Both the position numbers and the translations under genes were made by a program. DNA of 64,000 nucleotides from Trypanosoma brucei (taxonomy: Eukaryota): NCBI GenBank assembly GCA_000002445.1, contig AE017150.2, forward strand, positions 704,001-768,000. Reading direction: 5' to 3'. Of this stretch, positions 30,512-53,010 are shown in pieces. The notes beneath the pieces are model-generated. The model saw only the letters and a program-made list of their open reading frames with translations. It searched no databases and was not told the origin of the DNA. Within the stretch, counting starts at the first letter, position 1, and every line of letters starts with the position of its first letter.

Positions 30512-30514
<3 letters not shown>

Positions 30515-30548: not shown

Positions 30549-30552
<4 letters not shown>

Positions 30553-36065: not shown

Positions 36066-36090
36066 TGCCACTGAAAAAAAAAAAGAAAAA
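36066..36090 (-). promoter_or_regulatory. Polypyrimidine tract on the coding strand about 100-120 nt upstream of the kinase ATG. It is a candidate splice-acceptor signal.
   Basis: The + strand tgaaaaaaaaaaagaaaaacacc is a T/C run on the minus strand. Confidence 0.45.
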
Positions 36091-37128
36091 CACCGCGGTA
36101 GAATGTGTAAAAGAGAAAGGTCCGTAACAAATATACAAAGAAAAATTTATATATATTTGTACGAGAGTACACCGCGTCCCCCTCACTGGGTTAACTAAAT
36201 TGTTGTAAGGTGTCGAAAATAAAGACACCACCACGAAAGGAAAAGAAGTCAAAGATGGGAGAAAACAGGAGAAGAGTGATTCAAAAGTTGTGAATTGCAT
36301 TAACGAACGTGAAGCACAGAGAAAAAGAAGATGCAGACGGCGCCCCCAACCCAACCCAATTCACTCCCCAAAAAGGAACGGGCAGTGGTCAAAAAGGAGA
36401 AGGAAAGGAAACAATAAAATAAAACCACGTTTTCTTCATGCAAACATGTATAAAATCATGAGGTTATCCACTCTCACGAGACGCTTACTTGCGGAGTTTG
36501 CACCCTCACATGCTCATGGGTTCATACATTGAACACCTCCACGCCCACAACAGAGATCTGTCAACGAGGAAAGTTCGGGTAAACCTCACTATCACCCAAA
36601 TGGAATCCTCGAAAAAACAAAACAAAACAAAGAAACAACCATACAGTTTTTTAAAAATCTTCTTTGGAGAAACGTGCCCGAGCACGGAACACAATAAATA
36701 TCTAATGTGCTCATTTCCATTCCCTCCCCCTCGCGCAGTTGGGCTCAATACTCCTTGGCATACAACTGGCACTCGCTAAAATAGTTGCCCTCGATGACAA
36801 AAAGAAAACAACAACAAACAAACAAACAAACAAAGTTTAAATAGAACAAAACAACTAACTGATACGGATATACATAAGAGTAGTCGTTAATGGGGGGGGA
36901 AAGAATGAGAAAAGAGAGGGAAACTTTAATAATTTTTTCCTTGTTGTTTCCTTTTTACTCCGCTGCGCTTTCAGCACATCACATTAGTTTCACTTCCTCT
37001 CCCGAAACGATTAACGCACTGGTTCTTTGTCAATAACGATGTCCCAACTTAAACGCTAGTGCAATTCATATTTCTCCTCAAACATCGAGTAGGTGAACAC
37101 ACCCGCACACGCCAATACCCCTAACATA

Positions 37129-38706
37129 TTAAAGACGCGAAGCCTCAACATAGCGGGGAACGGCGCCCTTCATTTCCTCGGACGCCCTCGATGCAAAGCG
37201 GTCTTGGAAGCTCTTCTGGAACATGGTGACAAGTTCTTTCGTCGTCTCGTTGAACTGCTTCAGGTCCGTCCAAGCTTTGCGGGGGTTCAACAGGCTTGCG
37301 GGCACGTTCGCAACCCTCTTAGGAATGTGAAGGCCCCATCCGGGATACACTTCATAATCCGCCTGGTCAAGTGTACCGTCATGAATAGCATCAATGATGG
37401 CACGGGTGACGCGCAAAGGCATGCGCTTAGCCCCGCGGTCAGCACGGCCGCCTGCATAACCCGTGTTCAGCAGCCAAACGCGGCTATTGTGCTTTTCCAT
37501 CTTCTCAGCCAGTTGCTGGCCATAATGAGTGGCATGACGAACAAGGAATGGCCCACCGAAGCACGAGGAAAAAATGGGGCGAGCGACGCGAGCGCTTCCT
37601 GCTTCCACACCAGGGACGTTAGCCGTGTAGCCCATCACGAACCAGAACATAGCTTGAGCACTCGTTAGGCGTGCCACGGGAGGCATCACGCCAAAGGCAT
37701 CGTTCGTCAAGAAAATGATGTTCTTCGGGTGGCCCGCAACAGCCTTCGAAAGCGCACCGTCGATGTGCATGAGAGGGTAGGCAACGCGGGTGTTTTTGCA
37801 GATAGATTCATCATTAAAGTCAATTTCATGGGTTCTCCTGTCAAGAGTACAATTCTCGGCAACAGCGCCAAAGCGCACAGCCTCATAAATATCCTTCTCG
37901 GTTTCGGGGTTCAAACCAATCGCCTTAGCATAGCACCCGCCTTCAATGTTAAACACACCACGGTCCGTCCACACATGCTCGTCATCGCCAATGAGGTTGC
38001 GGCGCGGGTCCGCAGAGAGAGTCGTTTTGCCGGTTCCGCTGAGTCCAAAGAAGACCGTCACGTCACCGCTCTTACCCACGTTAGCGCTTGCATGCATGCA
38101 TAAGTGTCCCATGCGTGGCATCAATTCAAACATCACAGTCAGAATACCCTTCTTCATTTCACCAGCGTACTCTGTCCCAAGAATGACCTGTTCGCGGGTC
38201 TTAAAGTTCAGGGCCACTGACGTTGTTGAGGTAACACCGGGGACCGTCGGATCAGCCTTTGCCTCTCCGGCGTTGTAGATGACATAGTCCGGTTCACCAA
38301 AACTCTGCAGCTCCTCTAACGTAGGCACAATTAGCATGTTGCGCATGAAAAGTGCGTGGTAAGGGCGGGTCGTGTACACGCGCACCTTCAGGCGGTACCG
38401 TTCATCGTGGCCGGCAAAGCAGTCCATGACGAACAGGTGTTTGCAGGTGGCGAAGTAATCCTTTGCGATTGTCTTCAGTTTCTCAAATGATTCTTCGGTC
38501 AGCTTCATGTTTACGCTGCCCCAGTCCACATTGTCAGTAACGTCAGTGGTGTTTACAATACGCTTGTCGCGAGGAGAGCGGCCAGTCTTTGCGTATGAGC
38601 GTACGCTCAGGGCGCCACGAGCCGTCAGTTGGGAGTCCTTTTCAAGCTTAAGAGCCCACTCCACCAACTCGGGGGCGGTGAGATTCTTGTGAATTATAGG
38701 AGCCAT
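37129..38706 (-). CDS. PEPCK: Phosphoenolpyruvate carboxykinase (ATP-dependent), glycosomal, with a C-terminal SRL PTS1 signal.
   Basis: The ORF-track start is TTG. The ATG at 38706 gives MAPIIHKNLTAPELVEW..., 525 aa. ATP-PEPCK signatures are present: the kinase-1a loop 'GLSGTGKTTLS', plus 'YAGEMKKG' and 'FNIEGGCYAK' motifs. The protein ends ...RYVEASRL, a canonical PTS1. Confidence 0.92.
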   Translation of the reverse strand: MAPIIHKNLTAPELVEWALKLEKDSQLTARGALSVRSYAKTGRSPRDKRIVNTTDVTDNVDWGSVNMKLTEESFEKLKTIAKDYFATCKHLFVMDCFAGHDERYRLKVRVYTTRPYHALFMRNMLIVPTLEELQSFGEPDYVIYNAGEAKADPTVPGVTSTTSVALNFKTREQVILGTEYAGEMKKGILTVMFELMPRMGHLCMHASANVGKSGDVTVFFGLSGTGKTTLSADPRRNLIGDDEHVWTDRGVFNIEGGCYAKAIGLNPETEKDIYEAVRFGAVAENCTLDRRTHEIDFNDESICKNTRVAYPLMHIDGALSKAVAGHPKNIIFLTNDAFGVMPPVARLTSAQAMFWFVMGYTANVPGVEAGSARVARPIFSSCFGGPFLVRHATHYGQQLAEKMEKHNSRVWLLNTGYAGGRADRGAKRMPLRVTRAIIDAIHDGTLDQADYEVYPGWGLHIPKRVANVPASLLNPRKAWTDLKQFNETTKELVTMFQKSFQDRFASRASEEMKGAVPRYVEASRL

Positions 38707-39767
38707 TGTGTTATGATTGGGCAATACACAACGAAATATATAAGTATAAGAACGTAAAATGTTAATTGTTGAAGACGGCTGTAGAGGCTATCTTTGAAAC
38801 TTTATCTCCTACTTATATGCTTACTGTTCTCTTTTGTTATTGTCTTGTTCGCTAGTAGATAATCTATGAACAGCAGTAAAAAATAAGGGAAACGGAAACG
38901 AGCAGTTTGAAACATATGGAACAGAGGAAAGTTGATAAAGGGGACACCACACACCACCACCGCGATACCGTACCATTGGGTTTCTATGACATGCTCAAAA
39001 CTCTCGAGCCACATAAAAAACATGTGCCTTACACCAAAACATCAAAATCTTGAAAGGGAGATGAGAACAAATGAGTAAGAACGATGTTAAGTTAATACAT
39101 ACACTCACCCAAACATTACCCTAATATAACATTACCACCGCAAAAACATGTAACACAGTTCAGAAACATGTTTTGAATATCAAGCCATACAACATTGGTG
39201 CCGCACCCTGCTTCGTTAGACAGACCCGCCATCACCCATATAAAATCAAACGAAGTATTACAAGAAGAACAAAGAGTATATGACTACCCACACGCATGCC
39301 TCTTTGATTTGGATTATGGATACGTTCCGCAAAATGAAACTCATCCCAAAAATATTTTTAAAAAGGCCGTATTCTACTGAAGAAATTGCTGCGCATTTCC
39401 CAGCGGTGCCTTCTGATCTTCTTCCACTTGTCTCCACCAGCTTCTATGAATTTATGCTAACCAATTACACATGTCATCCTTTCAAACTATAAACAGCAGG
39501 AAAAGACGAACAGACACTCATTGCCTTCATGCACTTGTTATCAGCGATCATAAACATACCGTTTCCTTCCTTTAACTCATTCGATCCTGCAGATTCTGTG
39601 AGTAAACAAATTTGAACGAAGTTGGCGCTCACGCTCACTCCACTTTTGGTCACCGTAAATGAAGTCAGGAGAATATTACCGGGAGGGATCATTTCTAGGT
39701 GCATGTGTAGATGAACTGCACACTTTATGCACTAATAACAGGTTTGAAGTACTTACCTGGCATCTCC

Positions 39768-42700
39768 TCACGAGACCGCATTGGCTGAACGAGACCTTTT
39801 CCTTGTGCTACGTATGTCCATGACTTGCCGTACCTGTCGCTGTGTTTGTTCAGTGATTCTGGAATGATGTGATGACTCAACGGACAAGCTCACCCTCTCT
39901 CTGGTGGTTCTTCCTGCACCTAGCACAGGTGACCCCCGAATTTGCTGTTCCGGTGGGCTGCTGTGTTGTGCCACTTCTGATGACACACGACCACCATAGG
40001 TTACAACCCTTGTCTTGGCATATCGAAGCTCGTCCTCCAGACCTTTCTTATCGCCCTGCAACTTCTGAACTGCGCTTTCAAGTTGTAAGGTCTTCCTTGA
40101 TGCATTCTCCGCATCTTGTGCCGCCTTGGCCGCATCTTGTTCATACTGGTCAAGTTGTTCGTCCTTCTGTACAAGCTCATCCTGCAGCCGTTGAACCTCC
40201 TCATCCTTTCGTTGTAGAGCTTTTTCAAGGAACGTAACGCGCGCCTGCGACATGCGAATACGCGCTTCATCCCCCTCCACAACGGCCTTTTGACGAGAGG
40301 AACCGCTTTGCCGTTTTGGGGAACCACTCGTCGATGCAACCTCCTCGCGGAGTGTTTGCACCTGAGCCTCCATCAGACTGAATGCTTTCGCCAGTTCCTC
40401 AGCTTGCTGCCTGGCCGCAAGTTCACCCTCACGTTTCGATGCCTCCAGTGCGGAGAGTTTATTGCGGCTCGCTTGCAACTGTGCGGAGAGCGAGTTGTTC
40501 TGCTGTTTCAACCGACTAACTTCCTCACCTCGCTCACGACCAAGTTCATCGACCCTCTCGGTGAGAGTACGACGCTCAGCTATGAGTTCTTCACGTTGCT
40601 GACGCATTTCCACCAACTGTTGACGAATTTCATCTAAATCTTCCAGATACGCATTTGACTGCGACGAATTCTGTTCCAATGACAAGAGAAGTTCCTCTTG
40701 ATTGGATTCCAACTGACGGCAAGTTTTTCGGCAGAGCATTAGATCTGCGTGAAGGCTTGATATTTGTAGAAACTGGGCGAGATCTACAGCCTCTAAGTCC
40801 ACCGGTTCCGCCCCCACAGAACTCACATCAACGGAACCATCCACACCTAATACACTGTGCGCGCCACGAACGTCCTTTGCCCGAACAAATTGTTCCAACC
40901 GCTGGCACTCCTTCTGCAATTTAACTACTTCCAGACATTTTCTTTCCAAATCTTGCTCTAGCCGAACATTGCGCTCCTCCAACCTCCTCCTCGCATCATT
41001 AGAGCGATCAACGGATCTTCTTGCGACAATAAGTTCCGTCACGCAACCCTCACTCCTACGGTCATAAAATTCTTCAAAACCACGCTTCGTAGCGGAAACT
41101 TGAGCATGAAGTTCATCCACAACCCGAGACAACCTCTCAACATCTGCACCAACAGCACCATCACTATCCCCCACTTTACCATTCAAAGAAGAAACACTAT
41201 CCACAAGCAAACGATTACTAACCAAAACTTCATCTTTTAAAAAAGATATTTCCTCAACACTCCTCTCCAGCTTCTCCTTTGCTGTACGGAGTTCCTCCTC
41301 AAGTGTAGAAACACGTTCCTCCATCTCAGTTGCCTTTTCTAAAGCAGCTTCCCGTTCCTCAGCAAGTCGCTCAAGTGCTACTAAAGCAGATGCCAATTGT
41401 GTACCAAGATCCGTATCAGCATTCCTTACAGCAACATCAGACACAAGAGCAGCTCGTGCATTGCCATCCTTGTCAGACTGTGAGGTGCGTACACGAACTC
41501 CAGCGGCATTCAACTTATTCGTTAGCTGTATGATCTCTTCTTCTGCTTCACGAAGACGTTGTTGCGTGTGTTGCAATTCTGTTGTGAAAGCTGCCACAGT
41601 TTGTTCAGGTGTTGTACCGTAACTCTCCAAACGGGAAACAGTTTCCTCAAGTTGCGTAAGTTTTGTCACATGTAGCTCACGTTCTGCAGACATTTTCTTC
41701 GTGGTTGAGTGCGCTGTACGGAGTTCCTCCTCAAGTGTAGAAACACGTTCCTCCATCTCAGTTGCCTTTTCTAAAGCAGCTTCCCGTTCCTCAGCAAGTC
41801 GCTCAAGTGCTACTAAAGCAGATGCCAATTGTGTACCAAGATCTGTATCAGCATTCCTTACAGCAACATCAGACACAAGAGCAGCTCGTGCATTGCCATC
41901 CTTGTCAGACTGTGAGGTGCGTACACGAACTCCAGCGGCATTCAACTTATTCGTTAGCTGTATGATCTCTTCCTCTGCTTCACGAAGACGTTGTTGCGTG
42001 TGTTGCAATTCTGTTGTGAAAGCTGCCACAGTTTGTTCAGGTGTTGTACCGTAACTCTCCAAACGGGAAACAGTTTCCTCAAGTTGCGTAAGTTTTGTCA
42101 CATGTAGCTCACGTTCTGCAGACATTTTCTTCGTGGTTGAGTGCGCTGTACGGAGTTCCTCCTCAAGTGTAGAAACACGTTCCTCCATCTCAGTTGCCTT
42201 TTCTAAAGCAGCTTCCCGTTCCTCAGCAAGTCGCTCAAGTGCTACTAAAGCAGATGCCAATTGTGTACCAAGATCCGTATCAGCATTCCTTACAGCAACA
42301 TCAGACACAAGAGCAGCTCGTGCATTGCCATCCTTGTCAGACTGTGAGGTGCGTACACGAACTCCAGCGGCATTCAACTTATTCGTTAGCTGTATGATCT
42401 CTTCTTCTGCTTCACGAAGACGTTGTTGCGTGTGTTGCAATTCTGTTGTGAAAGCTGCCACAGTTTGTTCAGGTGTTGTACCGTAACTCTCCAAACGGGA
42501 AACAGTTTCCTCAAGTTGCGTAAGTTTTGTCACATGTAGCTCACGTTCTGCAGACATTTTCTTCGTGGTTGAGTGCGCTGTACGGAGTTCCTCCTCAAGT
42601 GTAGAAACACGTTCCTCCATCTCAGTTGCCTTTTCTAAAGCAGCTTCCCGTTCCTCAGCAAGTCGCTCAAGTGCTACTAAAGCAGATGCCAATTGTGTAC

Positions 42701-45700
42701 CAAGATCCGTATCAGCATTCCTTACAGCAACATCAGACACAAGAGCAGCTCGTGCATTGCCATCCTTGTCAGACTGTGAGGTGCGTACACGAACTCCAGC
42801 GGCATTCAACTTATTCGTTAGCTGTATGATCTCTTCTTCTGCTTCACGAAGACGTTGTTGCGTGTGTTGCAATTCTGTTGTGAAAGCTGCCACAGTTTGT
42901 TCAGGTGTTGTACCGTAACTCTCCAAACGGGAAACAGTTTCCTCAAGTTGCGTAAGTTTTGTCACATGTAGCTCACGTTCTGCAGACATTTTCTTCGTGG
43001 TTGAGTGCGCTGTACGGAGTTCCTCCTCAAGTGTAGAAACACGTTCCTCCATCTCAGTTGCCTTTTCTAAAGCAGCTTCCCGTTCCTCAGCAAGTCGCTC
43101 AAGTGCTACTAAAGCAGATGCCAATTGTGTACCAAGATCTGTATCAGCATTCCTTACAGCAACATCAGACACAAGAGCAGCTCGTGCATTGCCATCCTTG
43201 TCAGACTGTGAGGTGCGTACACGAACTCCAGCGGCATTCAACTTATTCGTTAGCTGTATGATCTCTTCTTCTGCTTCACGAAGACGTTGTTGCGTGTGTT
43301 GCAATTCTGTTGTGAAAGCTGCCACAGTTTGTTCAGGTGTTGTACCGTAACTCTCCAAACGGGAAACAGTTTCCTCAAGTTGCGTAAGTTTTGTCACATG
43401 TAGCTCACGTTCTGCAGACATTTTCTTCGTGGTTGAGTGCGCTGTACGGAGTTCCTCCTCAAGTGTAGAAACACGTTCCTCCATCTCAGTTGCCTTTTCT
43501 AAAGCAGCTTCCCGTTCCTCAGCAAGTCGCTCAAGTGCTACTAAAGCAGATGCCAATTGTGTACCAAGATCCGTATCAGCATTCCTTACAGCAACATCAG
43601 ACACAAGAGCAGCTCGTGCATTGCCATCCTTGTCAGACTGTGAGGTGCGTACACGAACTCCAGCGGCATTCAACTTATTCGTTAGCTGTATGATCTCTTC
43701 CTCTGCTTCACGAAGACGTTGTTGCGTGTGTTGCAATTCTGTTGTGAAAGCTGCCACAGTTTGTTCAGGTGTTGTACCGTAACTCTCCAAACGGGAAACA
43801 GTTTCCTCAAGTTGCGTAAGTTTTGTCACATGTAGCTCACGTTCTGCAGACATTTTCTTCGTGGTTGAGTGCGCTGTACGGAGTTCCTCCTCAAGTGTAG
43901 AAACACGTTCCTCCATCTCAGTTGCCTTTTCTAAAGCAGCTTCCCGTTCCTCAGCAAGTCGCTCAAGTGCTACTAAAGCAGATGCCAATTGTGTACCAAG
44001 ATCTGTATCAGCATTCCTTACAGCAACATCAGACACAAGAGCAGCTCGTGCATTGCCATCCTTGTCAGACTGTGAGGTGCGTACACGAACTCCAGCGGCA
44101 TTCAACTTATTCGTTAGCTGTATGATCTCTTCCTCTGCTTCACGAAGACGTTGTTGCGTGTGTTGCAATTCTGTTGTGAAAGCTGCCACAGTTTGTTCAG
44201 GTGTTGTACCGTAACTCTCCAAACGGGAAACAGTTTCCTCAAGTTGCGTAAGTTTTGTCACATGTAGCTCACGTTCTGCAGACATTTTCTTCGTGGTTGA
44301 GTGCGCTGTACGGAGTTCCTCCTCAAGTGTAGAAACACGTTCCTCCATCTCAGTTGCCTTTTCTAAAGCAGCTTCCCGTTCCTCAGCAAGTCGCTCAAGT
44401 GCTACTAAAGCAGATGCCAATTGTGTACCAAGATCCGTATCAGCATTCCTTACAGCAACATCAGACACAAGAGCAGCTCGTGCATTGCCATCCTTGTCAG
44501 ACTGTGAGGTGCGTACACGAACTCCAGCGGCATTCAACTTATTCGTTAGCTGTATGATCTCTTCTTCTGCTTCACGAAGACGTTGTTGCGTGTGTTGCAA
44601 TTCTGTTGTGAAAGCTGCCACAGTTTGTTCAGGTGTTGTACCGTAACTCTCCAAACGGGAAACAGTTTCCTCAAGTTGCGTAAGTTTTGTCACATGTAGC
44701 TCACGTTCTGCAGACATTTTCTTCGTGGTTGAGTGCGCTGTACGGAGTTCCTCCTCAAGTGTAGAAACACGTTCCTCCATCTCAGTTGCCTTTTCTAAAG
44801 CAGCTTCCCGTTCCTCAGCAAGTCGCTCAAGTGCTACTAAAGCAGATGCCAATTGTGTACCAAGATCCGTATCAGCATTCCTTACAGCAACATCAGACAC
44901 AAGAGCAGCTCGTGCATTGCCATCCTTGTCAGACTGTGAGGTGCGTACACGAACTCCAGCGGCATTCAACTTATTCGTTAGCTGTATGATCTCTTCTTCT
45001 GCTTCACGAAGACGTTGTTGCGTGTGTTGCAATTCTGTTGTGAAAGCTGCCACAGTTTGTTCAGGTGTTGTACCGTAACTCTCCAAACGGGAAACAGTTT
45101 CCTCAAGTTGCGTAAGTTTTGTCACATGTAGCTCACGTTCTGCAGACATTTTCTTCGTGGTTGAGTGCGCTGTACGGAGTTCCTCCTCAAGTGTAGAAAC
45201 ACGTTCCTCCATCTCAGTTGCCTTTTCTAAAGCAGCTTCCCGTTCCTCAGCAAGTCGCTCAAGTGCTACTAAAGCAGATGCCAATTGTGTACCAAGATCT
45301 GTATCAGCATTCCTTACAGCAACATCAGACACAAGAGCAGCTCGTGCATTGCCATCCTTGTCAGACTGTGAGGTGCGTACACGAACTCCAGCGGCATTCA
45401 ACTTATTCGTTAGCTGTATGATCTCTTCCTCTGCTTCACGAAGACGTTGTTGCGTGTGTTGCAATTCTGTTGTGAAAGCTGCCACAGTTTGTTCAGGTGT
45501 TGTACCGTAACTCTCCAAACGGGAAACAGTTTCCTCAAGTTGCGTAAGTTTTGTCACATGTAGCTCACGTTCTGCAGACATTTTCTTCGTGGTTGAGTGC
45601 GCTGTACGGAGTTCCTCCTCAAGTGTAGAAACACGTTCCTCCATCTCAGTTGCCTTTTCTAAAGCAGCTTCCCGTTCCTCAGCAAGTCGCTCAAGTGCTA

Positions 45701-48700
45701 CTAAAGCAGATGCCAATTGTGTACCAAGATCCGTATCAGCATTCCTTACAGCAACATCAGACACAAGAGCAGCTCGTGCATTGCCATCCTTGTCAGACTG
45801 TGAGGTGCGTACACGAACTCCAGCGGCATTCAACTTATTCGTTAGCTGTATGATCTCTTCTTCTGCTTCACGAAGACGTTGTTGCGTGTGTTGCAATTCT
45901 GTTGTGAAAGCTGCCACAGTTTGTTCAGGTGTTGTACCGTAACTCTCCAAACGGGAAACAGTTTCCTCAAGTTGCGTAAGTTTTGTCACATGTAGCTCAC
46001 GTTCTGCAGACATTTTCTTCGTGGTTGAGTGCGCTGTACGGAGTTCCTCCTCAAGTGTAGAAACACGTTCCTCCATCTCAGTTGCCTTTTCTAAAGCAGC
46101 TTCCCGTTCCTCAGCAAGTCGCTCAAGTGCTACTAAAGCAGATGCCAATTGTGTACCAAGATCCGTATCAGCATTCCTTACAGCAACATCAGACACAAGA
46201 GCAGCTCGTGCATTGCCATCCTTGTCAGACTGTGAGGTGCGTACACGAACTCCAGCGGCATTCAACTTATTCGTTAGCTGTATGATCTCTTCCTCTGCTT
46301 CACGAAGACGTTGTTGCGTGTGTTGCAATTCTGTTGTGAAAGCTGCCACAGTTTGTTCAGGTGTTGTACCGTAACTCTCCAAACGGGAAACAGTTTCCTC
46401 AAGTTGCGTAAGTTTTGTCACATGTAGCTCACGTTCTGCAGACATTTTCTTCGTGGTTGAGTGCGCTGTACGGAGTTCCTCCTCAAGTGTAGAAACACGG
46501 TCCTCCATCTCAGTTGCCTTTTCTAAAGCAGCTTCCCGTTCCTCAGCAAGTCGCTCAAGTGCTACTAAAGCAGATGCCAATTGTGTACCAAGATCCGTAT
46601 CAGCATTCCTTACAGCAACATCAGACACAAGAGCAGCTCGTGCATTGCCATCCTTGTCAGACTGTGAGGTGCGTACACGAACTCCAGCGGCATTCAACTT
46701 ATTCGTTAGCTGTATGATCTCTTCCTCTGCTTCACGAAGACGTTGTTGCGTGTGTTGCAATTCTGTTGTGAAAGCTGCCACAGTTTGTTCAGGTGTTGTA
46801 CCGTAACTCTCCAAACGGGAAACAGTTTCCTTAAGTTGCGTAAGTTTTGTCACATGTAGCTCACGTTCTGCAGACATTTTCTTCGTGGTTGAGTGCGCTG
46901 TACGGAGTTCCTCCTCAAGTGTAGAAACACGTTCCTCCATCTCAGTTGCCTTTTCTAAAGCAGCTTCCCGTTCCTCAGCAAGTCGCTCAAGTGCTACTAA
47001 AGCAGATGCCAATTGTGTACCAAGATCCGTATCAGCATTCCTTACAGCAACATCAGACACAAGAGCAGCTCGTGCATTGCCATCCTTGTCAGACTGTGAG
47101 GTGCGTACACGAACTCCAGCGGCATTCAACTTATTCGTTAGCTGTATGATCTCTTCCTCTGCTTCACGAAGACGTTGTTGCGTGTGTTGCAATTCTGTTG
47201 TGAAAGCTGCCACAGTTTGTTCAGGTGTTGTACCGTAACTCTCCAAACGGGAAACAGTTTCCTCAAGTTGCGTAAGTTTTGTCACATGTAGCTCACGTTC
47301 TGCAGACATTTTCTTCGTGGTTGAGTGCGCTGTACGGAGTTCCTCCTCAAGTGTAGAAACACGTTCCTCCATCTCAGTTGCCTTTTCTAAAGCAGCTTCC
47401 CGTTCCTCAGCAAGTCGCTCAAGTGCTACTAAAGCAGATGCCAATTGTGTACCAAGATCCGTATCAGCATTCCTTACAGCAACATCAGACACAAGAGCAG
47501 CTCGTGCATTGCCATCCTTGTCAGACTGTGAGGTGCGTACACGAACTCCAGCGGCATTCAACTTATTCGTTAGCTGTATGATCTCTTGCTCTGCTTCACG
47601 AAGACGTTGTTGCGTGTGTTGCAATTCTGTTGTGAAAGCTGCCACAGTTTGTTCAGGTGTTGTACCGTAACTCTCCAAACGGGAAACAGTTTCCTCAAGT
47701 TGCGTAAGTTTTGTCACATGTAGCTCACGTTCTGCAGACATTTTCTTCGTGGTTGAGTGCGCTGTACGGAGTTCCTCCTCAAGTGTAGAAACACGTTCCT
47801 CCATCTCAGTTGCCTTTTCTAAAGCAGCTTCCCGTTCCTCAGCAAGTCGCTCAAGTGCTACTAAAGCAGATGCCAATTGTGTACCAAGATCCGTATCAGC
47901 ATTCCTTACAGCAACATCAGACACAAGAGCAGCTCGTGCATTGCCATCCTTGTCAGACTGTGAGGTGCGTACACGAACTCCAGCGGCATTCAACTTATTC
48001 GTTAGCTGTATGATCTCTTCCTCTGCTTCACGAAGACGTTGTTGCGTGTGTTGCAATTCTGTTGTGAAAGCTGCCACAGTTTGTTCAGGTGTTGTACCGT
48101 AACTCTCCAAACGGGAAACAGTTTCCTCAAGTTGCGTAAGTTTTGTCACATGTAGCTCACGTTCTGCAGACATTTTCTTCGTGGTTGAGTGCGCTGTACG
48201 GAGTTCCTCCTCAAGTGTAGAAACACGTTCCTCCATCTCAGTTGCCTTTTCTAAAGCAGCTTCCCGTTCCTCAGCAAGTCGCTCAAGTGCTACTAAAGCA
48301 GATGCCAATTGTGTACCAAGATCCGTATCAGCATTCCTTACAGCAACATCAGACACAAGAGCAGCTCGTGCATTGCCATCCTTGTCAGACTGTGAGGTGC
48401 GTACACGAACTCCAGCGGCATTCAACTTATTCGTTAGCTGTATGATCTCTTCCTCTGCTTCACGAAGACGTTGTTGCGTGTGTTGCAATTCTGTTGTGAA
48501 AGCTGCCACAGTTTGTTCAGGTGTTGTACCGTAACTCTCCAAACGGGAAACAGTTTCCTCAAGTTGCGTAAGTTTTGTCACATGTAGCTCACGTTCTGCA
48601 GACATTTTCTTCGTGGTTGAGTGCGCTGTACGGAGTTCCTCCTCAAGTGTAGAAACACGTTCCTCCATTTCAGTTGCTCTTGCTAGTGTAGCATCGTGCT

Positions 48701-50711
48701 GTTCTGCTAGCTGTGTTAGGGCTGCCAAGGCGGAGGATAACTGTGTTTTCAATCCGGCATTATATGTTCTCAGTGATCCTTCTGTATCATTTGGTGTTAA
48801 ACTTCCACTTCTTGTTGTACTTGTTGAGCGGCCCCGAGCTCCAGCCGCATTCAGCTTATTCGTTAGTTGCACGTTCTCTTCCCCTGCCTCGCGAAGGCAC
48901 TTCTGTGTGTGCTGCAGTTCCGTTTTCAGTGCTTCTATGACTTCTGTTAAACCTTCTTCTGTCATCTTGTGCTTGATTATGGCTTGTTCGTACTCGTCAT
49001 TTTGAGCTGACGACAATTCCTTGTTATTCCCTGTGGCATTGTGACCGCTATCGGCTTTTTGTGGTTGGTTTAGTTTCTCATGTTGCACATTTGCAGTAAT
49101 ATATTGCGAATCATTTCCTGACCTTGATGGCATCTGTGTCTCTCTTGTCACTAACTCTATTGATTCCTCTTTATTCCCGCCTTGTGGAATGTTCTTTTCA
49201 CCGCTTATGGAGCCTGATATTTGTATTTTTTCTCTGAGTTGATGATGAAAGTTGTTGATCACATAGCTATCTTCGGTGATCCTTTCTTGAGCAGTCTGCA
49301 GTTGGTTTTGTGTGTGGGAAAGGCTTTTCGTTAGTTCTGCAGCGTGTTCTCTCGATTTCTGAAGGGCGGCCTCTAGTTGCTGCTGAAGATTTTGGAGGTT
49401 AAATATTTCTTCGCTCGCTTTTTGGAGCAGGATGTCCTTCGCTTCTCCTTCCCTACGGAGCAAGAAGAACTGCTGTTGAAGTGTGTGCTGTTGTAGTTCC
49501 AGCATTCTGTACACTTCATCATCGTTGTTTGTATTTGTGTCTGTTTTGTTCTCGTCTGTTGTCTCCATTTGTGTGTCAGGTGCCCCACGTTGTACTGCTT
49601 GCTCAGTTTTGCGCTGTAGTAGTTGTGAAGTAAGATCCTCAATCGTCCTGTGCTGTTCGTCACACATTTCCTGCAATTGTTCCTTTTGCTCCTGCAGTGC
49701 GGTGTTTTGTTGGTGAAGGTTGTTTCGCGCTTGTATTGCTTCCCTAAGGCTTTCTTCGTAGTCTTCACGTTCTTTTCGAAGAAGCTGCTGTAGATCCGTT
49801 ATCTCTGTACGTGTCACCTGTAACAGGTACCTTGATTGCGCCAATTCCTCTTCATGACTCGTGTTTTCACTTTTCCCCATTTCTGCAGCGACAGCGTGGT
49901 GCCTAATACACTCACGTTCCCTTTCAAGCTCTTTAGTTAGCTCCAGAAGTTCTTCCTCAAGTTTTTTGTTCTTCTCTTCAAGCGCACTTATCTCTTGACG
50001 GCCAACATGTCGTTCACCTCCAGATGGGACATATTTGCCTTGTGAATTTACGGACACTAGCTTATCCCTAAGCTGTCGCACCTCCCCTTCCGATTCGTCA
50101 AGTTTTTGACGCAGTTCTTCGTTTTCTCGCTTGCAGCGGTATATTACGTCGTTGCATGCACTATGCTCGCGCAAAAGGCAATCAAAACGATGATTTTTGT
50201 CCTGCAACTCACGATGGAGGCGTGCAGCCTCATTTTTGTAGTCATCACGCAACTGATACGCACGGCTAAGGGTATTATGCACATGAGTCATATCTCCCTC
50301 CAAGCGATTTGTGTACTCCATGCGCTCCTCCTCTGACATGTCCGCCAAGCCCCGACGCCCAGCGAAGATGGTGGGGTGCATTCCCATAGGAGCAGTTTGT
50401 TTGGAGCTGAGAAGCGGCATTATGCTGGGTTCCTCACGTGACATGCCGACGAGTGCAGAATTAGTCAGCAACCCCGTAGGAGATGGTAAAGGATTGTTGA
50501 GACGAGGTATGGAATCCGTTGCGGCCAATCCTCGCACATTAATTGGTGCCGCCAGCCGCGGTGTGAGCAGCGGCGGTGTCTCATGTGTCAAACCTCCTTG
50601 GATGCTGCTGGCGCTTCGGTTGCTTCTCACATGCCCAATATTTTCGGGTGGTGGAGTCCACGTTCGTGTGAAGAAACCGGGGTACCGCCGTGCGTCCCCA
50701 GCAGAAAACAT
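39768..50711 (-). CDS. NUP-1: Giant coiled-coil protein of 3647 aa with about 17 tandem 144-aa repeats. It is consistent with the kinetoplastid lamin-like nucleoskeletal protein NUP-1.
   Basis: ATG confirmed at 50711. Heptad-rich E/L/R/K/Q composition runs throughout. A central array of near-identical 432-bp units encodes ...EERVSTLEEELRTAHSTTKKMSAERELHVTKLTQLEETVSRLESYGTTPEQTVAAFTTELQHTQQRLREAEEEIIQLTNKLNAAGVRVRTSQSDKDGNARAALVSDVAVRNADTDLGTQLASALVALERLAEEREAALEKATEM.... The size, the 144-aa period and the copy number match what I recall of the published description of T. brucei NUP-1. Confidence 0.75.
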   Translation of the reverse strand: MFSAGDARRYPGFFTRTWTPPPENIGHVRSNRSASSIQGGLTHETPPLLTPRLAAPINVRGLAATDSIPRLNNPLPSPTGLLTNSALVGMSREEPSIMPLLSSKQTAPMGMHPTIFAGRRGLADMSEEERMEYTNRLEGDMTHVHNTLSRAYQLRDDYKNEAARLHRELQDKNHRFDCLLREHSACNDVIYRCKRENEELRQKLDESEGEVRQLRDKLVSVNSQGKYVPSGGERHVGRQEISALEEKNKKLEEELLELTKELERERECIRHHAVAAEMGKSENTSHEEELAQSRYLLQVTRTEITDLQQLLRKEREDYEESLREAIQARNNLHQQNTALQEQKEQLQEMCDEQHRTIEDLTSQLLQRKTEQAVQRGAPDTQMETTDENKTDTNTNNDDEVYRMLELQQHTLQQQFFLLRREGEAKDILLQKASEEIFNLQNLQQQLEAALQKSREHAAELTKSLSHTQNQLQTAQERITEDSYVINNFHHQLREKIQISGSISGEKNIPQGGNKEESIELVTRETQMPSRSGNDSQYITANVQHEKLNQPQKADSGHNATGNNKELSSAQNDEYEQAIIKHKMTEEGLTEVIEALKTELQHTQKCLREAGEENVQLTNKLNAAGARGRSTSTTRSGSLTPNDTEGSLRTYNAGLKTQLSSALAALTQLAEQHDATLARATEMEERVSTLEEELRTAHSTTKKMSAERELHVTKLTQLEETVSRLESYGTTPEQTVAAFTTELQHTQQRLREAEEEIIQLTNKLNAAGVRVRTSQSDKDGNARAALVSDVAVRNADTDLGTQLASALVALERLAEEREAALEKATEMEERVSTLEEELRTAHSTTKKMSAERELHVTKLTQLEETVSRLESYGTTPEQTVAAFTTELQHTQQRLREAEEEIIQLTNKLNAAGVRVRTSQSDKDGNARAALVSDVAVRNADTDLGTQLASALVALERLAEEREAALEKATEMEERVSTLEEELRTAHSTTKKMSAERELHVTKLTQLEETVSRLESYGTTPEQTVAAFTTELQHTQQRLREAEQEIIQLTNKLNAAGVRVRTSQSDKDGNARAALVSDVAVRNADTDLGTQLASALVALERLAEEREAALEKATEMEERVSTLEEELRTAHSTTKKMSAERELHVTKLTQLEETVSRLESYGTTPEQTVAAFTTELQHTQQRLREAEEEIIQLTNKLNAAGVRVRTSQSDKDGNARAALVSDVAVRNADTDLGTQLASALVALERLAEEREAALEKATEMEERVSTLEEELRTAHSTTKKMSAERELHVTKLTQLKETVSRLESYGTTPEQTVAAFTTELQHTQQRLREAEEEIIQLTNKLNAAGVRVRTSQSDKDGNARAALVSDVAVRNADTDLGTQLASALVALERLAEEREAALEKATEMEDRVSTLEEELRTAHSTTKKMSAERELHVTKLTQLEETVSRLESYGTTPEQTVAAFTTELQHTQQRLREAEEEIIQLTNKLNAAGVRVRTSQSDKDGNARAALVSDVAVRNADTDLGTQLASALVALERLAEEREAALEKATEMEERVSTLEEELRTAHSTTKKMSAERELHVTKLTQLEETVSRLESYGTTPEQTVAAFTTELQHTQQRLREAEEEIIQLTNKLNAAGVRVRTSQSDKDGNARAALVSDVAVRNADTDLGTQLASALVALERLAEEREAALEKATEMEERVSTLEEELRTAHSTTKKMSAERELHVTKLTQLEETVSRLESYGTTPEQTVAAFTTELQHTQQRLREAEEEIIQLTNKLNAAGVRVRTSQSDKDGNARAALVSDVAVRNADTDLGTQLASALVALERLAEEREAALEKATEMEERVSTLEEELRTAHSTTKKMSAERELHVTKLTQLEETVSRLESYGTTPEQTVAAFTTELQHTQQRLREAEEEIIQLTNKLNAAGVRVRTSQSDKDGNARAALVSDVAVRNADTDLGTQLASALVALERLAEEREAALEKATEMEERVSTLEEELRTAHSTTKKMSAERELHVTKLTQLEETVSRLESYGTTPEQTVAAFTTELQHTQQRLREAEEEIIQLTNKLNAAGVRVRTSQSDKDGNARAALVSDVAVRNADTDLGTQLASALVALERLAEEREAALEKATEMEERVSTLEEELRTAHSTTKKMSAERELHVTKLTQLEETVSRLESYGTTPEQTVAAFTTELQHTQQRLREAEEEIIQLTNKLNAAGVRVRTSQSDKDGNARAALVSDVAVRNADTDLGTQLASALVALERLAEEREAALEKATEMEERVSTLEEELRTAHSTTKKMSAERELHVTKLTQLEETVSRLESYGTTPEQTVAAFTTELQHTQQRLREAEEEIIQLTNKLNAAGVRVRTSQSDKDGNARAALVSDVAVRNADTDLGTQLASALVALERLAEEREAALEKATEMEERVSTLEEELRTAHSTTKKMSAERELHVTKLTQLEETVSRLESYGTTPEQTVAAFTTELQHTQQRLREAEEEIIQLTNKLNAAGVRVRTSQSDKDGNARAALVSDVAVRNADTDLGTQLASALVALERLAEEREAALEKATEMEERVSTLEEELRTAHSTTKKMSAERELHVTKLTQLEETVSRLESYGTTPEQTVAAFTTELQHTQQRLREAEEEIIQLTNKLNAAGVRVRTSQSDKDGNARAALVSDVAVRNADTDLGTQLASALVALERLAEEREAALEKATEMEERVSTLEEELRTAHSTTKKMSAERELHVTKLTQLEETVSRLESYGTTPEQTVAAFTTELQHTQQRLREAEEEIIQLTNKLNAAGVRVRTSQSDKDGNARAALVSDVAVRNADTDLGTQLASALVALERLAEEREAALEKATEMEERVSTLEEELRTAHSTTKKMSAERELHVTKLTQLEETVSRLESYGTTPEQTVAAFTTELQHTQQRLREAEEEIIQLTNKLNAAGVRVRTSQSDKDGNARAALVSDVAVRNADTDLGTQLASALVALERLAEEREAALEKATEMEERVSTLEEELRTAHSTTKKMSAERELHVTKLTQLEETVSRLESYGTTPEQTVAAFTTELQHTQQRLREAEEEIIQLTNKLNAAGVRVRTSQSDKDGNARAALVSDVAVRNADTDLGTQLASALVALERLAEEREAALEKATEMEERVSTLEEELRTAKEKLERSVEEISFLKDEVLVSNRLLVDSVSSLNGKVGDSDGAVGADVERLSRVVDELHAQVSATKRGFEEFYDRRSEGCVTELIVARRSVDRSNDARRRLEERNVRLEQDLERKCLEVVKLQKECQRLEQFVRAKDVRGAHSVLGVDGSVDVSSVGAEPVDLEAVDLAQFLQISSLHADLMLCRKTCRQLESNQEELLLSLEQNSSQSNAYLEDLDEIRQQLVEMRQQREELIAERRTLTERVDELGRERGEEVSRLKQQNNSLSAQLQASRNKLSALEASKREGELAARQQAEELAKAFSLMEAQVQTLREEVASTSGSPKRQSGSSRQKAVVEGDEARIRMSQARVTFLEKALQRKDEEVQRLQDELVQKDEQLDQYEQDAAKAAQDAENASRKTLQLESAVQKLQGDKKGLEDELRYAKTRVVTYGGRVSSEVAQHSSPPEQQIRGSPVLGAGRTTRERVSLSVESSHHSRITEQTQRQVRQVMDIRSTRKRSRSANAVS
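41270..49000 (-). repeat. 432-bp tandem repeat array. About 17 near-identical copies span 41270-48700, and one diverged copy lies at about 48700-49000.
   Basis: Identical antisense ORFs recur at 41701 + n x 432 in the ORF track. The copies differ only at a few SNP positions, such as gatcCgtatc versus gatcTgtatc and ttcTtctgc versus ttcCtctgc. Confidence 0.95.
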
Positions 50712-50847
50712 TTAGTTGACCACTTCTTAATGTGATCCTGACTCCTGCTGTCGCTGTGGCTATTTCAACGCTTCTCCTTATTGTTGTCTGTTTGTGTATT
50801 TGTATGTGCTAACCCTTTCGATTTCCTTCGTCAAAATGAACGAATAA

Positions 50848-50890
50848 ATGAGAAAAAAAGGATAAAAGAGAAGAAAAAAGGAAAAGACTA
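50848..50890 (-). promoter_or_regulatory. Polypyrimidine tract on the coding strand about 140-180 nt upstream of the NUP-1 ATG. It is a candidate trans-splice acceptor signal.
   Basis: The + strand atgagaaaaaaaggataaaagagaagaaaaaaggaaaagac is a long C/T run on the minus strand. Confidence 0.5.
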
Positions 50891-51906
50891 GTTGAAGTTT
50901 TCTCTCCCCCTTGTCTGCCTATATATATATATATATTTAAAACTTTGACGATTAAGTCAATATTCCAAATTAGTGTGGAGTCCTCACCGGCATCAGGCAT
51001 TCCACTATGCTTCAGCCCATCCTCACGAACTATTCATCATTTTTTTTTGTTACTTTGATCTTCCTCCTGCCATTTATGAAGTATTAATCCACACAGGGTG
51101 CTGTGAAGTCTGGCCGTTACATTTACTACATGATAATATAGCGAAACGAAGGGTGGCGAGATTTTTTGAACAAATGAGAATATCGCCTAGAGGTTTCGAA
51201 ACCGAACATTGTAAAGGTCGAAGGATTCGGTCCATTGGTTCGTATCTGTGAGACAAAGTTTGGTGATGGAACCGGAAAAAAAAATACAAAGTAGAAGGAT
51301 GAAAAACACTCCCTCACATACGGCTACAAAAATATGCTTGTATGCGTAAAAATAAATAAATACCAGAACTCTTCGGAGTATGTGGCATCCATTTTTAAGC
51401 GCATCATTCAACTGGGCACTATTATTACGATTCCGCTCAACTCACCACATCGCCGGTTAGCCGATCAGCGTTGTTTTGTGAGAGTTCGTAGGCGCATATA
51501 CATGCGAGTGACCGTAAAAGAAAATAAAACGAGCGATAAAATGAAAAAAAAAAGGAAAAACAATTAAAAAGGAAAGCCCGGTATTTCCTCATCCCACTTT
51601 GTGCAGCACTTTCTCAGTGTAAAGACCAGTCCGGTTGAGACTGTTGTGTAATAACTTAGTGCGGGGAAATACCTTAGTTTTAGTACCCTACCTTACACAC
51701 TGCATGTATCTCAGAAGAAACGAGATCACACACTTCCGCAAAGCCTATAACCCATTTTTCTTCATGTTGGTATCCATCACAAAAAGCACACTCGAGTAAA
51801 CACGCTCACGTACCGCTATGACTCTCAAACGCATAGATACACACGTACAAACCTTCCCCCTTAGTTTCTTTTTCTTTTTTTTTGTGTGTGTGTGCTATTT
51901 CGTCCC

Positions 51907-53010
51907 TTATCGCGAGGCTCCATGCTCAACAATCATAATATCACCATCTTGCATGGTGTATGTGGCATCCACATAGGCCATTTTAAGCTCTGCCGCCTCG
52001 AGATTTGGTTGTTCAATAAATTTATCCCATGCCATTATTTTTGCCCGGTGAAAGTGCTGCTCCATGTCGGAGTGAATTTCGCCACTAGCCTCTTTTGCCG
52101 TCGCTCCTACGCGTGTGGTCCAGCCGTGAGCCATCTGCGGACCAATTGTGAAGAAGGACTGCAGTCGTAGTAGTTTATAGGCCCGGCGCAGTAGCAATTC
52201 GCCATGCGGTGTATCTACTCCATATTCTTTCAAAAAGAGAAGCCGCTCCTCGCGGGAGTTAAGTTGAGATGTTTGCTCTTCCAAAGAAGCGCACACACGA
52301 CACGTCCGTTCAGAGCCAAGCGCACTCTCAACCATATGCGTGTAGCGGTTTCCACTCGCAATAGTCGATTCATCTGTATTAAGAACAAACATCATGGGTT
52401 TGGCGGAGAGAAGATTGTACTGCTGTAAAATCTGACGCTCTTCGTCAGTCTTCAACGACATATCCGCCGCAGGTTTGCCTTCCTGCAACCATGATACGAC
52501 GCGTTGGCAAATCACCAGTGAGGGATCTCCAACCTTTCGTATCTTCGCTTGCTTACTAAGAATTTTTTCCATTGCTTCCAGATCCGCCAGCACCAGCTCA
52601 TTTACAATAGTGCAGACATCTTCCAGTGGCGTTGGTGTACCGAATCCATCTCTAGCGCTCTCAAAGCAACGCACCATATGCAAAAGAATGGTGCATGGCC
52701 GAATATCACTGAGAAACTTATTTCCAAGACCTGCGCCTTTTGACGCCCCCTCAATGAGGCCCGCCACATCCGCGAGGTCGATCTCGACGTCAACAATTTT
52801 ATGCGCCCCGCTAAAGGTTGCCAGCCGGCGCAGCCGATCATCCGCAACAGGGACGCGGGCAAGGTTGGCGTCTATGGTACAAAATGGGAAATTTCCTGTT
52901 TTTGCCTGCTGACTGCAGGTGAGGGCATTAAACAGAGTAGACTTTCCAACATTGGGAAGGCCAATGATTCCAGCACCACGTCGCCGCAGTTGCAATGACG
53001 AAGTGTGCAT
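51907..53010 (-). CDS. Obg-like ATPase of the YchF/OLA1 family (GTP-binding protein).
   Basis: ATG confirmed at 53010. The G1 motif is GIIGLPNVGKSTLFNALT and the G3 motif is DVAGLIEGAS. A YchF-specific 'NLLSAKPMMFVLNTDE' replaces the canonical NKxD. The C-terminal TGS-like region reads EIHSDMEQHFHRAKIMAWDKF. At 367 aa the length is typical of YchF. Confidence 0.8.
   Translation of the reverse strand: MHTSSLQLRRRGAGIIGLPNVGKSTLFNALTCSQQAKTGNFPFCTIDANLARVPVADDRLRRLATFSGAHKIVDVEIDLADVAGLIEGASKGAGLGNKFLSDIRPCTILLHMVRCFESARDGFGTPTPLEDVCTIVNELVLADLEAMEKILSKQAKIRKVGDPSLVICQRVVSWLQEGKPAADMSLKTDEERQILQQYNLLSAKPMMFVLNTDESTIASGNRYTHMVESALGSERTCRVCASLEEQTSQLNSREERLLFLKEYGVDTPHGELLLRRAYKLLRLQSFFTIGPQMAHGWTTRVGATAKEASGEIHSDMEQHFHRAKIMAWDKFIEQPNLEAAELKMAYVDATYTMQDGDIMIVEHGASR

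What the first reader, a model, noticed from the sequence alone, without database searches (positions are those of the whole stretch)
39768..50711. Giant lamin-like coiled-coil gene (NUP-1 candidate) with about 17 near-identical 432-bp repeats
A single 10.9-kb ORF encodes a 3647-aa coiled-coil protein. Its centre is a 7.4-kb array of almost perfectly identical 144-aa units. Near-identical tandem repeats of this size are a classic site of assembly collapse and of copy-number polymorphism between strains. The copy number here (about 17) may differ from the published value of about 20 for T. brucei NUP-1. The repeat also generates 17 identical 117-aa antisense ORFs that could be mis-annotated as genes.
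Basis: partly seen in the sequence, partly recalled or inferred. Interest (0 to 1): 0.6.

Follow-up and report, generated by a model that had tools for sequence, protein, structure and literature searches.

The report
Known trypanosome lamina gene NUP-1
This is the already published NUP-1 gene of the Trypanosoma brucei reference genome, a giant repeat-rich protein that lines the parasite's nucleus as lamins do in animals; its 17 repeats match the main paper exactly, so the finding is correct but not new.

Summary
A 10,944-nt ORF on the minus strand (39768..50711) encodes 3,647 aa. It contains 17 near-identical 432-bp (144-aa) units at 41334..48677, each 0-2 nt from the consensus.

The protein is residue-for-residue XP_951625.1 / Q586V1, "NUP-1 protein, putative", T. 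brucei brucei TREU927 chromosome 2 (Tb927.2.4230). DuBois et al. 2012 describe the same thing: 3,647 aa, 17 repeats of 144 aa, three conservative substitutions, pI 5.07 and an NLS at residues 3633-3643. The reference sequence has always had 17.

- T. b. gambiense DAL972 has an N-gap and about 3 units.
- T. equiperdum OVI has a contig break at the edge of the array.
- A PacBio draft of T. b. equiperdum has 26 units, with 7 single-base deletions that break the frame.

Differences between strains are fixed in every unit of an array, which is concerted evolution. The window's array holds 1.7-kb exact internal duplicates, so 17 cannot be confirmed from the sequence alone.

The "antisense ORFs" depend on GTG starts; from ATG they are about 30 codons. 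They are a by-product of composition.

Lamin membership fails: no Filament or LTD domain and no CaaX. NUP-1 is a functional analogue of lamins, not a relative.

The parts
39768..50711 (-). Complete NUP-1 coding sequence (3647 aa plus stop), identical to XP_951625.1 / Tb927.2.4230
   Evidence: predicted 406.9 kDa and pI 5.07 match the published values
48678..50711 (-). N-terminal domain, aa 1-678. The first ~130 aa are a Pro/Ser-rich head; the rest has heptad periodicity. The literature reports that this domain interacts with NUP-2
   Evidence: Orthologue hits at 40-41% identity in T. cruzi, T. conorhini and T. theileri; heptad periodicity z=6.7 against shuffles; NUP-2 interaction from PMC8255026
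48678..48923 (-). Diverged partial repeat copy (about aa 597-678) at the 5' edge of the array. The 144 aa before unit 1 are 35% identical to a unit, and the similarity lies in this stretch. This edge copy has escaped homogenisation
   Evidence: alignment (TELQHTQ..LREA..QLTNKLNAAG..TQL.SAL.AL..LAE conserved)
41334..48677 (-). 17 full 432-bp / 144-aa units, each 0-2 nt from the consensus
41281..41333 (-). Truncated 18th unit (first 18 aa, ATEMEERVSTLEEELRTA), which merges into the C-terminal domain
39768..41333 (-). C-terminal domain (aa 3127-3647) plus stop codon; helical with heptad periodicity
   Evidence: 98% identical to the T. b. equiperdum NUP-1 piece and 41% to T. theileri NUP-1; periodicity z=5.5
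39783..39815 (-). Nuclear localisation signal, residues 3633-3643 (IRSTRKRSRSA; residues 3633-3647 = IRSTRKRSRSANAVS)
   Evidence: Sequence. [quoted passage not shown]
43702..45428 (-). First copy of a 1,727-bp exact internal duplicate, repeated 5 units (2,160 bp) further along the gene at 41542..43268. It marks either a recent 5-unit block duplication or an assembly ambiguity
   Evidence: the variant pattern of units 7-16 (a b a a b / - ab a a b)
41701..49005 (+). 16 antisense 117-aa ORFs plus one of 130 aa, all GTG-started. A by-product of composition, not genes

Best explanation
The ORF is NUP-1 (Tb927.2.4230) of Trypanosoma brucei brucei TREU927 chromosome 2, the major protein of the trypanosome nuclear lamina. 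The sequence shows the following. It is a 407-kDa, acidic, mostly alpha-helical protein with strong heptad periodicity. Non-repetitive N- and C-terminal domains flank 17 near-identical 144-aa units. Each unit is predicted as a ~74-residue helix, a ~35-residue helix, a ~16-residue flexible linker and a short helix. A basic NLS sits at the extreme C-terminus. The published experiments, not tested here, show the rest. The protein forms a stable net under the nuclear envelope. Its termini act as oligomerising hubs that contact NUP-2 and pore components, and the repeat rod acts as a long spacer, up to about 400 nm if fully extended. Depletion causes nuclear blebbing, telomere clustering and de-repression of silent VSG and procyclin genes. 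At the DNA level, I infer from comparing strains that the array is kept homogeneous by unequal crossing-over or gene conversion (concerted evolution). That same process makes copy number labile and makes the locus hard to assemble.
For: Identity: an exact full-length match to XP_951625.1 / Q586V1_TRYB2 on a 1,193,948-bp contig. Tb927.2.4230 is NUP-1 in DuBois Table S1 and in PMC11408851. The published descriptors match exactly: 3647 aa, 17 x 144 aa, three conservative substitutions, pI 5.07, 406 kDa, NLS 3633-3643. [quoted passage not shown] The locus is collinear at 98-99.5% identity with three other Trypanozoon assemblies. The flanking genes are in the same order: kinase, PEPCK, NUP-1, YchF GTPase, DSP phosphatase. 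Structure: the AlphaFold2 model of two units has pLDDT 78.7 and is mostly helical, with one low-confidence linker per unit. Hydrophobic 3.5-residue periodicity gives z = 5.5-8.6 against shuffles in all three domains. Concerted evolution: all 26 units of the T. b. equiperdum array and both complete units in DAL972 differ from the TREU927 consensus at the same three positions (8, 92, 153). Each array also has private polymorphisms (TREU927 224 and 353; equiperdum 183; gambiense 293 and 315). Only the 5' edge unit of TREU927 keeps the other strains' state at position 8. Function: PMC3313915 and PMC8255026.
Against: Nothing contradicts the identity. Function and localisation are taken from the literature, not tested here. 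The structure was modelled from a single sequence and as a monomer (pTM 0.46), so dimeric coiled-coil packing is inferred. The copy number of 17 cannot be verified from the window alone.
Confidence: 0.97

Rival explanations
1. The 17-unit count in the window is an assembly approximation. The true TREU927 array, or one of its two alleles, has a different number of units, for example about 20 or more.
For: The array contains exact internal duplicates of 1,727 bp (5-unit shift), 1,556 bp (8-unit shift) and 1,295 bp (3-unit shift). These are longer than Sanger reads, so read overlap alone cannot fix the register. Three other assemblies break, gap or differ at this array. An older estimate of 20 repeats is still quoted.
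Against: The array carries four singleton variants and an ordered mosaic of two recurrent variants, which a crude collapse would not give. The predicted 407 kDa agrees with the reported '>400 kDa', though gels cannot separate 407 from 450 kDa. Every later study uses 17, but they all rely on this same sequence.
Confidence: 0.3
2. The 26-unit array in the T. b. equiperdum assembly is a mis-assembly, with overlapping long reads joined in the wrong register. In that case there is no real copy-number difference within Trypanozoon.
For: If GCA_003543875.1 is the IVM-t1 draft described in PMC6395869 (which I did not verify), it rests on only 7,508 PacBio RS II reads averaging 8.5 kb, shorter than the 11.3-kb array. 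Seven uncorrected single-base deletions in short base runs (2-4 identical bases) show low consensus quality in the array.
Against: Read lengths in that draft reached 42 kb, so single reads that span the array are possible. The array has its own non-periodic pattern at position 183 and no obvious duplicated block. Both flanks are collinear with the window.
Confidence: 0.35
3. NUP-1 is a highly diverged true homologue of metazoan lamins or intermediate filaments, not an analogue.
For: A weak Pfam Filament (PF00038) match in the C-terminal domain: E = 0.023, 14.8 bits. The layout is head, helical rod, tail with NLS.
Against: The Filament score is far below the 40-bit cutoff and sits among many equally weak matches to generic coiled-coil families such as Tropomyosin, HAUS1 and ATG16. 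There is no lamin tail domain hit at E<=1 and no CaaX box (the C-terminus is ...NAVS). Foldseek found no PDB match at E<=0.001; the best were Rad50, SMC and dynein-stalk coiled coils. The literature also finds no lamin domains.
Confidence: 0.04
4. The repeated antisense ORFs on the + strand encode real proteins.
For: One antisense frame has only one stop per 432-bp unit, leaving 143 codons open.
Against: The ORFs exist only with GTG starts; from the first ATG they are about 30 codons. 8.8% of codon-shuffled units give an open antisense run of at least 117 codons, and the non-repeat parts of the gene show similar runs of 91-141 codons. This is one compositional event copied 17 times. The translation is low-complexity, rich in Ser, Arg, Ala and Cys. 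Every credible gene in the window is on the - strand, as in one polycistronic unit. No antisense genes are called in the three related annotated loci.
Confidence: 0.01

Closest known systems
T. brucei NUP-1 (Tb927.2.4230; DuBois et al. 2012, PMC3313915)
   Same: Everything. The 3647-aa sequence is identical, with 17 x 144-aa repeats, three conservative substitutions and the NLS at 3633-3643.
   Different: Nothing. The window is the reference locus itself.
NUP-1 orthologues in other Trypanozoon assemblies (T. b. gambiense DAL972, T. equiperdum OVI, T. b. equiperdum GCA_003543875.1)
   Same: Collinear locus at 98-99.5% nucleotide identity, with the same 432-bp unit.
   Different: The state of the array: a 101-N gap plus about 3 units in DAL972, a contig break at the array edge in OVI, and 26 units with 7 frameshifting deletions in GCA_003543875.1. 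There are also three fixed differences per unit from TREU927.
NUP-1 orthologues of T. cruzi, T. theileri and T. conorhini
   Same: Homologous N-terminal domains (40-41% identity, E 1e-86 to 1e-93) in all three, and a homologous C-terminal domain (41%, E 8.5e-88) in T. theileri. DuBois et al. report the same three-part architecture.
   Different: Repeat length, number and sequence differ between species while staying nearly identical within each protein (literature). I did not re-measure this.
Metazoan lamins (type V intermediate filaments)
   Same: They work alike: a helical rod protein under the inner nuclear membrane, imported through an NLS, needed for nuclear shape, pore spacing and peripheral silent chromatin (literature).
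   Different: No Filament rod or lamin tail domain above threshold and no CaaX. NUP-1 is about seven times larger. The proposed architecture is hub-and-spoke, not a filament lattice.
Plant NMCP/CRWN lamina proteins
   Same: Another lineage-specific long coiled-coil analogue of lamins (reviews).
   Different: No sequence relationship was detected, and they have no array of near-identical repeats. The comparison rests on the literature, not on a test made here.

Membership tests
Trypanosomatid NUP-1 (lamina protein) | Sequence identity or homology to the reference NUP-1 (Tb927.2.4230 / XP_951625.1) | tested here: met
   Exact full-length match; accession linked to NUP-1
Trypanosomatid NUP-1 (lamina protein) | Non-repeat N- and C-terminal domains conserved in other Trypanosoma NUP-1 proteins | tested here: met
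   N-terminal domain: 40-41% identity to T. cruzi, T. conorhini and T. theileri, E 1e-86 to 1e-93. C-terminal domain: 41% to T. theileri NUP-1, E 8.5e-88
Trypanosomatid NUP-1 (lamina protein) | Central array of near-identical alpha-helical repeats (144 aa in T. brucei) | tested here: met
   17 units at 99.8% identity; helices in the AF2 model; heptad periodicity z=8.6
Trypanosomatid NUP-1 (lamina protein) | C-terminal NLS (residues 3633-3643) | tested here: met
   Residues 3633-3647 are IRSTRKRSRSANAVS. Function was shown by deletion and add-back in PMC3313915 and was not re-tested here
Trypanosomatid NUP-1 (lamina protein) | Single syntenic locus | tested here: met
   Collinear with three Trypanozoon assemblies, between PEPCK and the YchF GTPase. 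Synteny outside Trypanozoon was not tested
Trypanosomatid NUP-1 (lamina protein) | Localisation to the nuclear periphery and lamina function | not testable with these tools
   Literature only
Lamins / intermediate filaments | Intermediate filament rod domain (Pfam PF00038) above the gathering score | tested here: not met
   14.8 bits against a cutoff of 40, E=0.023, in the C-terminal domain only
Lamins / intermediate filaments | Lamin tail (Ig-like) domain | tested here: not met
   No LTD hit at E<=1 in the N-terminal domain, two repeat units or the C-terminal domain. PMC10953052 also says it is absent
Lamins / intermediate filaments | C-terminal CaaX prenylation box | tested here: not met
   The C-terminus is ...SANAVS, with no Cys at position -4
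SMC / Rad50-type coiled-coil proteins | ABC ATPase head domains flanking an antiparallel coiled coil | tested here: not met
   No SMC or Rad50 head family among the Pfam hits at E<=1
SMC / Rad50-type coiled-coil proteins | Significant fold similarity of the repeat to SMC coiled-coil arms | tested here: inconclusive
   The best Foldseek PDB hits are Rad50, Smc and dynein stalk, but E>=0.06 and TM 0.2-0.4, with none at E<=0.001. The model is a monomer built from a single sequence

The most novel reading that the evidence does not exclude
NUP-1 repeat number truly varies within the T. brucei group: 17 units (407 kDa) in TREU927 against 26 units (about 550 kDa, 4,943 aa) in a T. b. equiperdum isolate. 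The array turns over fast enough that strain-specific substitutions, including the T52A change, are fixed across all units. If so, the length of the lamina 'spoke' would be a naturally variable parameter. That would offer a natural experiment on how rod length affects nuclear size, mesh spacing and telomere or VSG positioning.
Probability: 0.5. Interest if true: 0.35.

Novelty: already known. Interest (0 to 1): 0.15.

Why it matters
NUP-1 is important in its own right. It was the first non-metazoan lamin analogue and is tied to the silencing of VSG expression sites. But this window is the published reference locus, so the finding adds no new biology.

The small useful additions are practical:
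- The often-quoted '20 repeats' and the reference '17 repeats' are not independent measurements of the same thing.
- The array is unresolved or different in every other Trypanozoon assembly examined.
- The comparison of assemblies suggests copy-number variation (17 against 26) and shows textbook concerted evolution.

Anyone using NUP-1 size, repeat-directed antibodies, RNAi fragments or tagging constructs across strains should not assume 17 units.

Tried and rejected
1. Exact look-up of the 3647-aa protein in the contig index found nothing on record. I therefore could not fetch the TREU927 annotation around the gene, and took context from the related loci L001-L004 instead.
2. Rout & Field 2001 (JBC), the likely source of 'about 20', is not held. 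The figure is documented only second-hand, through PMC4010787.
3. Literature searches found no report of NUP-1 repeat-number polymorphism between T. brucei strains. A 2026 T. brucei pangenome preprint does not mention NUP-1.
4. Foldseek of the two-unit model against the PDB gave no significant match. It offers no specific support for spectrin-like, SMC-like or lamin-like folds.
5. The Pfam scan gave only sub-threshold matches to generic coiled-coil families.
6. Rfam (gathering thresholds) and ARAGORN found no RNA genes in the window.
7. I rejected the antisense ORFs as genes.
8. I did not run the 1.84-billion-protein representative search, a third homologue search or a second structure prediction. 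The identity was already exact, and coiled-coil queries mostly return compositional matches.
Full report
OBSERVATION

The window has a single ATG-initiated ORF on the minus strand at 39768..50711 that encodes 3,647 aa. Tandem Repeats Finder reports one array inside it: period 432, 17.1 copies, 99% matches, no indels, 41281..48677.

I put the units in the register that begins ATEMEERV. That gives 17 full units at 41334..48677, each 0-2 nt from the consensus. At the protein level 14 of the 17 are identical. The other three carry E>Q (unit 3), E>K (unit 5) and E>D (unit 6). Two synonymous G>A sites recur: unit position 224 in eight units and position 353 in four units.

The array ends 18 residues into an 18th copy. 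It is preceded by a diverged partial copy at about aa 597-678; the 144 aa before unit 1 are 35% identical to a unit, and the similarity lies in that stretch.

IDENTITY

An exact-sequence look-up finds the 3,647-aa product as XP_951625.1 / AAX79640.1 / UniProt Q586V1_TRYB2. It is named 'NUP-1 protein, putative [Trypanosoma brucei brucei TREU927]' and lies on a 1,193,948-bp contig. From my own knowledge, that is the size of chromosome 2. DuBois et al. 2012, Table S1, lists T. brucei NUP-1 as Tb927.2.4230, as does PMC11408851.

That paper's description matches the window point for point:
[quoted passage not shown] - pI 5.07.
- An NLS at 'residues 3633-3643 of 3647'.

I compute 406.9 kDa and pI 5.07, and residues 3633-3647 read IRSTRKRSRSANAVS. 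A 2023 review gives 406 kDa and 17 repeats.

The N-terminal 600 aa hit only Trypanosoma proteins, all named NUP-1 except one unnamed T. cruzi entry (T. b. equiperdum 99%, T. b. gambiense, and T. conorhini, T. cruzi and T. theileri at 40-41%). The last two units plus the C-terminal domain hit T. b. equiperdum NUP-1 (98%) and T. theileri NUP-1 (41%).

Every credible ORF of 200 aa or more in the window is on the minus strand, as expected for a kinetoplastid polycistronic unit. The neighbours are a protein kinase, PEPCK, a YchF-type GTPase and a dual-specificity phosphatase. The same genes appear in the same order in the related loci, and the DNA is collinear at 98-99.5% identity.

THE '17 VERSUS 20' QUESTION

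The literature holds both numbers. The figure 17 comes from the functional paper and later reviews, which all rest on this very reference sequence. The figure 20 appears in a review that cites Rout & Field 2001; I could not read the original. So the window does not disagree with 'the' published value. It is the source of one of the two.

Whether 17 is physically correct for TREU927 cannot be settled from the sequence. The array contains exact internal duplicates of 1,727 bp at a 5-unit shift (43702..45428 and 41542..43268), 1,556 bp at an 8-unit shift and 1,295 bp at a 3-unit shift. All are longer than Sanger reads. The register therefore depended on clone-level constraints. A gain or loss of a whole block, 5 units for example, would leave no trace in the sequence.

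The variant pattern of units 7-16 (a b a a b / - ab a a b, where a is 224A and b is 353A) fits a real recent 5-unit block duplication. An assembly artefact would produce the same pattern.

OTHER ASSEMBLIES

- In T. b. gambiense DAL972 (FN554965.1, L003) the gene is split into 443-aa and 929-aa 'fragments'. A 101-N gap separates them and only about 2.96 units remain. DuBois Table S1 already notes such splits.
- In T. equiperdum OVI (CZPT02000279.1, L004) the contig begins at gene position 9400, which is the 3' edge of the array.
- In the T. b. equiperdum assembly GCA_003543875.1 (CM010673.1; L001 and L002, overlap verified) the gene spans 14,825 bp with 26 full units (TRF 26.1 copies). There it is annotated as six ORFs, because seven single-base deletions break the frame. 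All seven lie in short runs of 2-4 identical bases, which is typical of uncorrected long-read error.

From my own knowledge this assembly is the IVM-t1 draft; I did not verify that link here. The IVM-t1 draft used only 7,508 PacBio RS II reads, averaging 8.5 kb and reaching 42 kb, plus MiSeq polishing. So 26 is plausible but not secure. With 26 units the protein would be 4,943 aa and about 550 kDa.

CONCERTED EVOLUTION

Compared with the TREU927 consensus, every one of the 26 equiperdum units carries the same three differences: position 8 G>A (synonymous), position 92 A>G (synonymous) and position 153 A>G (T52A). Both complete gambiense units carry them too.

Each array also has its own internal polymorphisms: positions 224 and 353 in TREU927, position 183 (T62A) in equiperdum, and positions 293 and 315 in gambiense. 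Only the first, 5'-edge unit of TREU927 keeps the other strains' state at position 8.

Divergence of the repeat consensus (3 of 432 nt, 0.7%) is similar to that of the unique flanks (16 of 2034 nt and 21 of 1566 nt), yet units within an array are about 99.8% identical. This is the classic signature of homogenisation by unequal exchange or gene conversion, with the edges escaping. It also explains the diverged partial copy at the 5' edge. The conclusion is an inference from three assemblies. DuBois et al. had already noted, between species, that repeats are near-identical within an orthologue and diverge between orthologues.

PROTEIN ARCHITECTURE AND MECHANISM

AlphaFold2 on two units (single sequence, pLDDT 78.7, pTM 0.46) predicts the following for each 144-aa unit:
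- a helix of about 74 residues that runs across the unit boundary;
- a 4-residue break at SYGT-TP;
- a helix of about 35 residues;
- a low-confidence linker of about 16 residues (GVRVRTSQSDKDGNAR);
- a short helix of about 11 residues.

Hydrophobic 3.5-residue periodicity exceeds all 500 shuffles in the N-terminal domain (z 6.7), the unit (z 8.6) and the C-terminal domain (z 5.5). The protein is therefore helical and coiled-coil-like, but with a regular flexible hinge once per unit. It is not one uninterrupted rod.

How it works comes from the literature. NUP-1 forms an immobile net at the nuclear periphery. The NLS is necessary and sufficient for import. Knock-down gives nuclear blebs, telomere clustering and de-repression of VSG and procyclin genes. 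The termini oligomerise as hubs, the N-terminus binds NUP-2, and both termini contact TbNup98.

COMPARISON WITH KNOWN FAMILIES

Membership in NUP-1 is met on every feature that could be tested.

Membership in the lamin / intermediate-filament family fails on all three defining features:
- PF00038 scores 14.8 bits against a cutoff of 40, among many equally weak generic coiled-coil matches.
- There is no lamin tail domain.
- There is no CaaX; the protein ends ...NAVS.

Foldseek against the PDB gave no hit at E<=0.001. The top hits (Rad50, Smc, dynein stalk; E>=0.06) reflect generic long helical hairpins. NUP-1 thus works like a lamin but is not one, which agrees with the published view.

ANTISENSE ORFS

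There are 16 ORFs of 117 aa (15 identical) plus one of 130 aa. They arise because one antisense frame has a single stop per unit. All depend on a GTG start; from the first ATG they are about 30 codons.

8.8% of codon-shuffled units give an open antisense run of at least 117 codons. The non-repeat parts of the gene have comparable antisense runs of 91-141 codons. This is one unremarkable compositional event copied 17 times, not 17 independent signals.

VERDICT

The finding is real and correctly interpreted, but it is the published reference gene, so it is already known. The only points with residual interest are the unverified copy number of the reference array, the apparent 17 against 26 difference between Trypanozoon assemblies, and the clean example of concerted evolution. 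All three need long reads or Southern blots to settle; fragment sizes are given.

Noticed in passing
window 6848..10594 (-), array 8300..10167: A second repeat-rich gene. It has a 54-bp unit x 34.6 copies at 96% identity, encoding 18-aa acidic repeats (ATETVEATEVAEAAEALN). A non-repeat region follows, then a Cys/His-rich C-terminal stretch that looks like a zinc-binding, LIM-like motif. The array also creates long spurious ORFs on both strands (8114..10189 +, 8262..10247 +, 8242..10182 -). The Pfam hits (Plasmodium_HRP; LED_rpt, which is below its cutoff) look compositional.
   Followed up: partly
window 41542..45428 (units 7-16 of the NUP-1 array): The array shows higher-order structure. The two recurrent synonymous variants follow a pattern with a 5-unit period (a b a a b / - ab a a b), and there is a 1,727-bp exact duplicate at a 2,160-bp shift. 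This suggests a recent 5-unit block duplication, or an assembly ambiguity.
   Followed up: partly
L003 11431..11637 (T. b. gambiense DAL972, FN554965.1): The ~207 bp directly after the 101-N gap inside NUP-1 match nothing in the window. This is probably misplaced sequence at the edge of the gap in that assembly.
   Followed up: partly
L004 1..1545 versus L002 11769..13284: The two assemblies labelled 'equiperdum' differ in how close they are to TREU927 at this locus. The OVI C-terminal region is 99.94% identical (1 mismatch in 1545), whereas GCA_003543875.1 has 21 mismatches in 1566.
   Followed up: no
window 1..64000: All credible ORFs of 200 aa or more lie on the minus strand, as one polycistronic unit. 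The + strand has C well above G (15,938 against 13,629). There are no tRNA genes and no Rfam matches at gathering thresholds.
   Followed up: yes
window 29213..32854 and 53011..55932: Two long stretches (3.6 kb and 2.9 kb) have no ORF of 200 aa or more. They contain low-complexity tracts, (AT)n and (ATA)n in the first, (TAA)n and A-rich or T/C-rich (polypyrimidine) short repeats in the second. They are probably long UTR or intergenic regions; I did not examine them further.
   Followed up: no
window 61111..63399 (-): A 762-aa ORF combines a paraflagellar rod domain (PF05149, E 1e-105) with a C-terminal SH3 domain.
   Followed up: no
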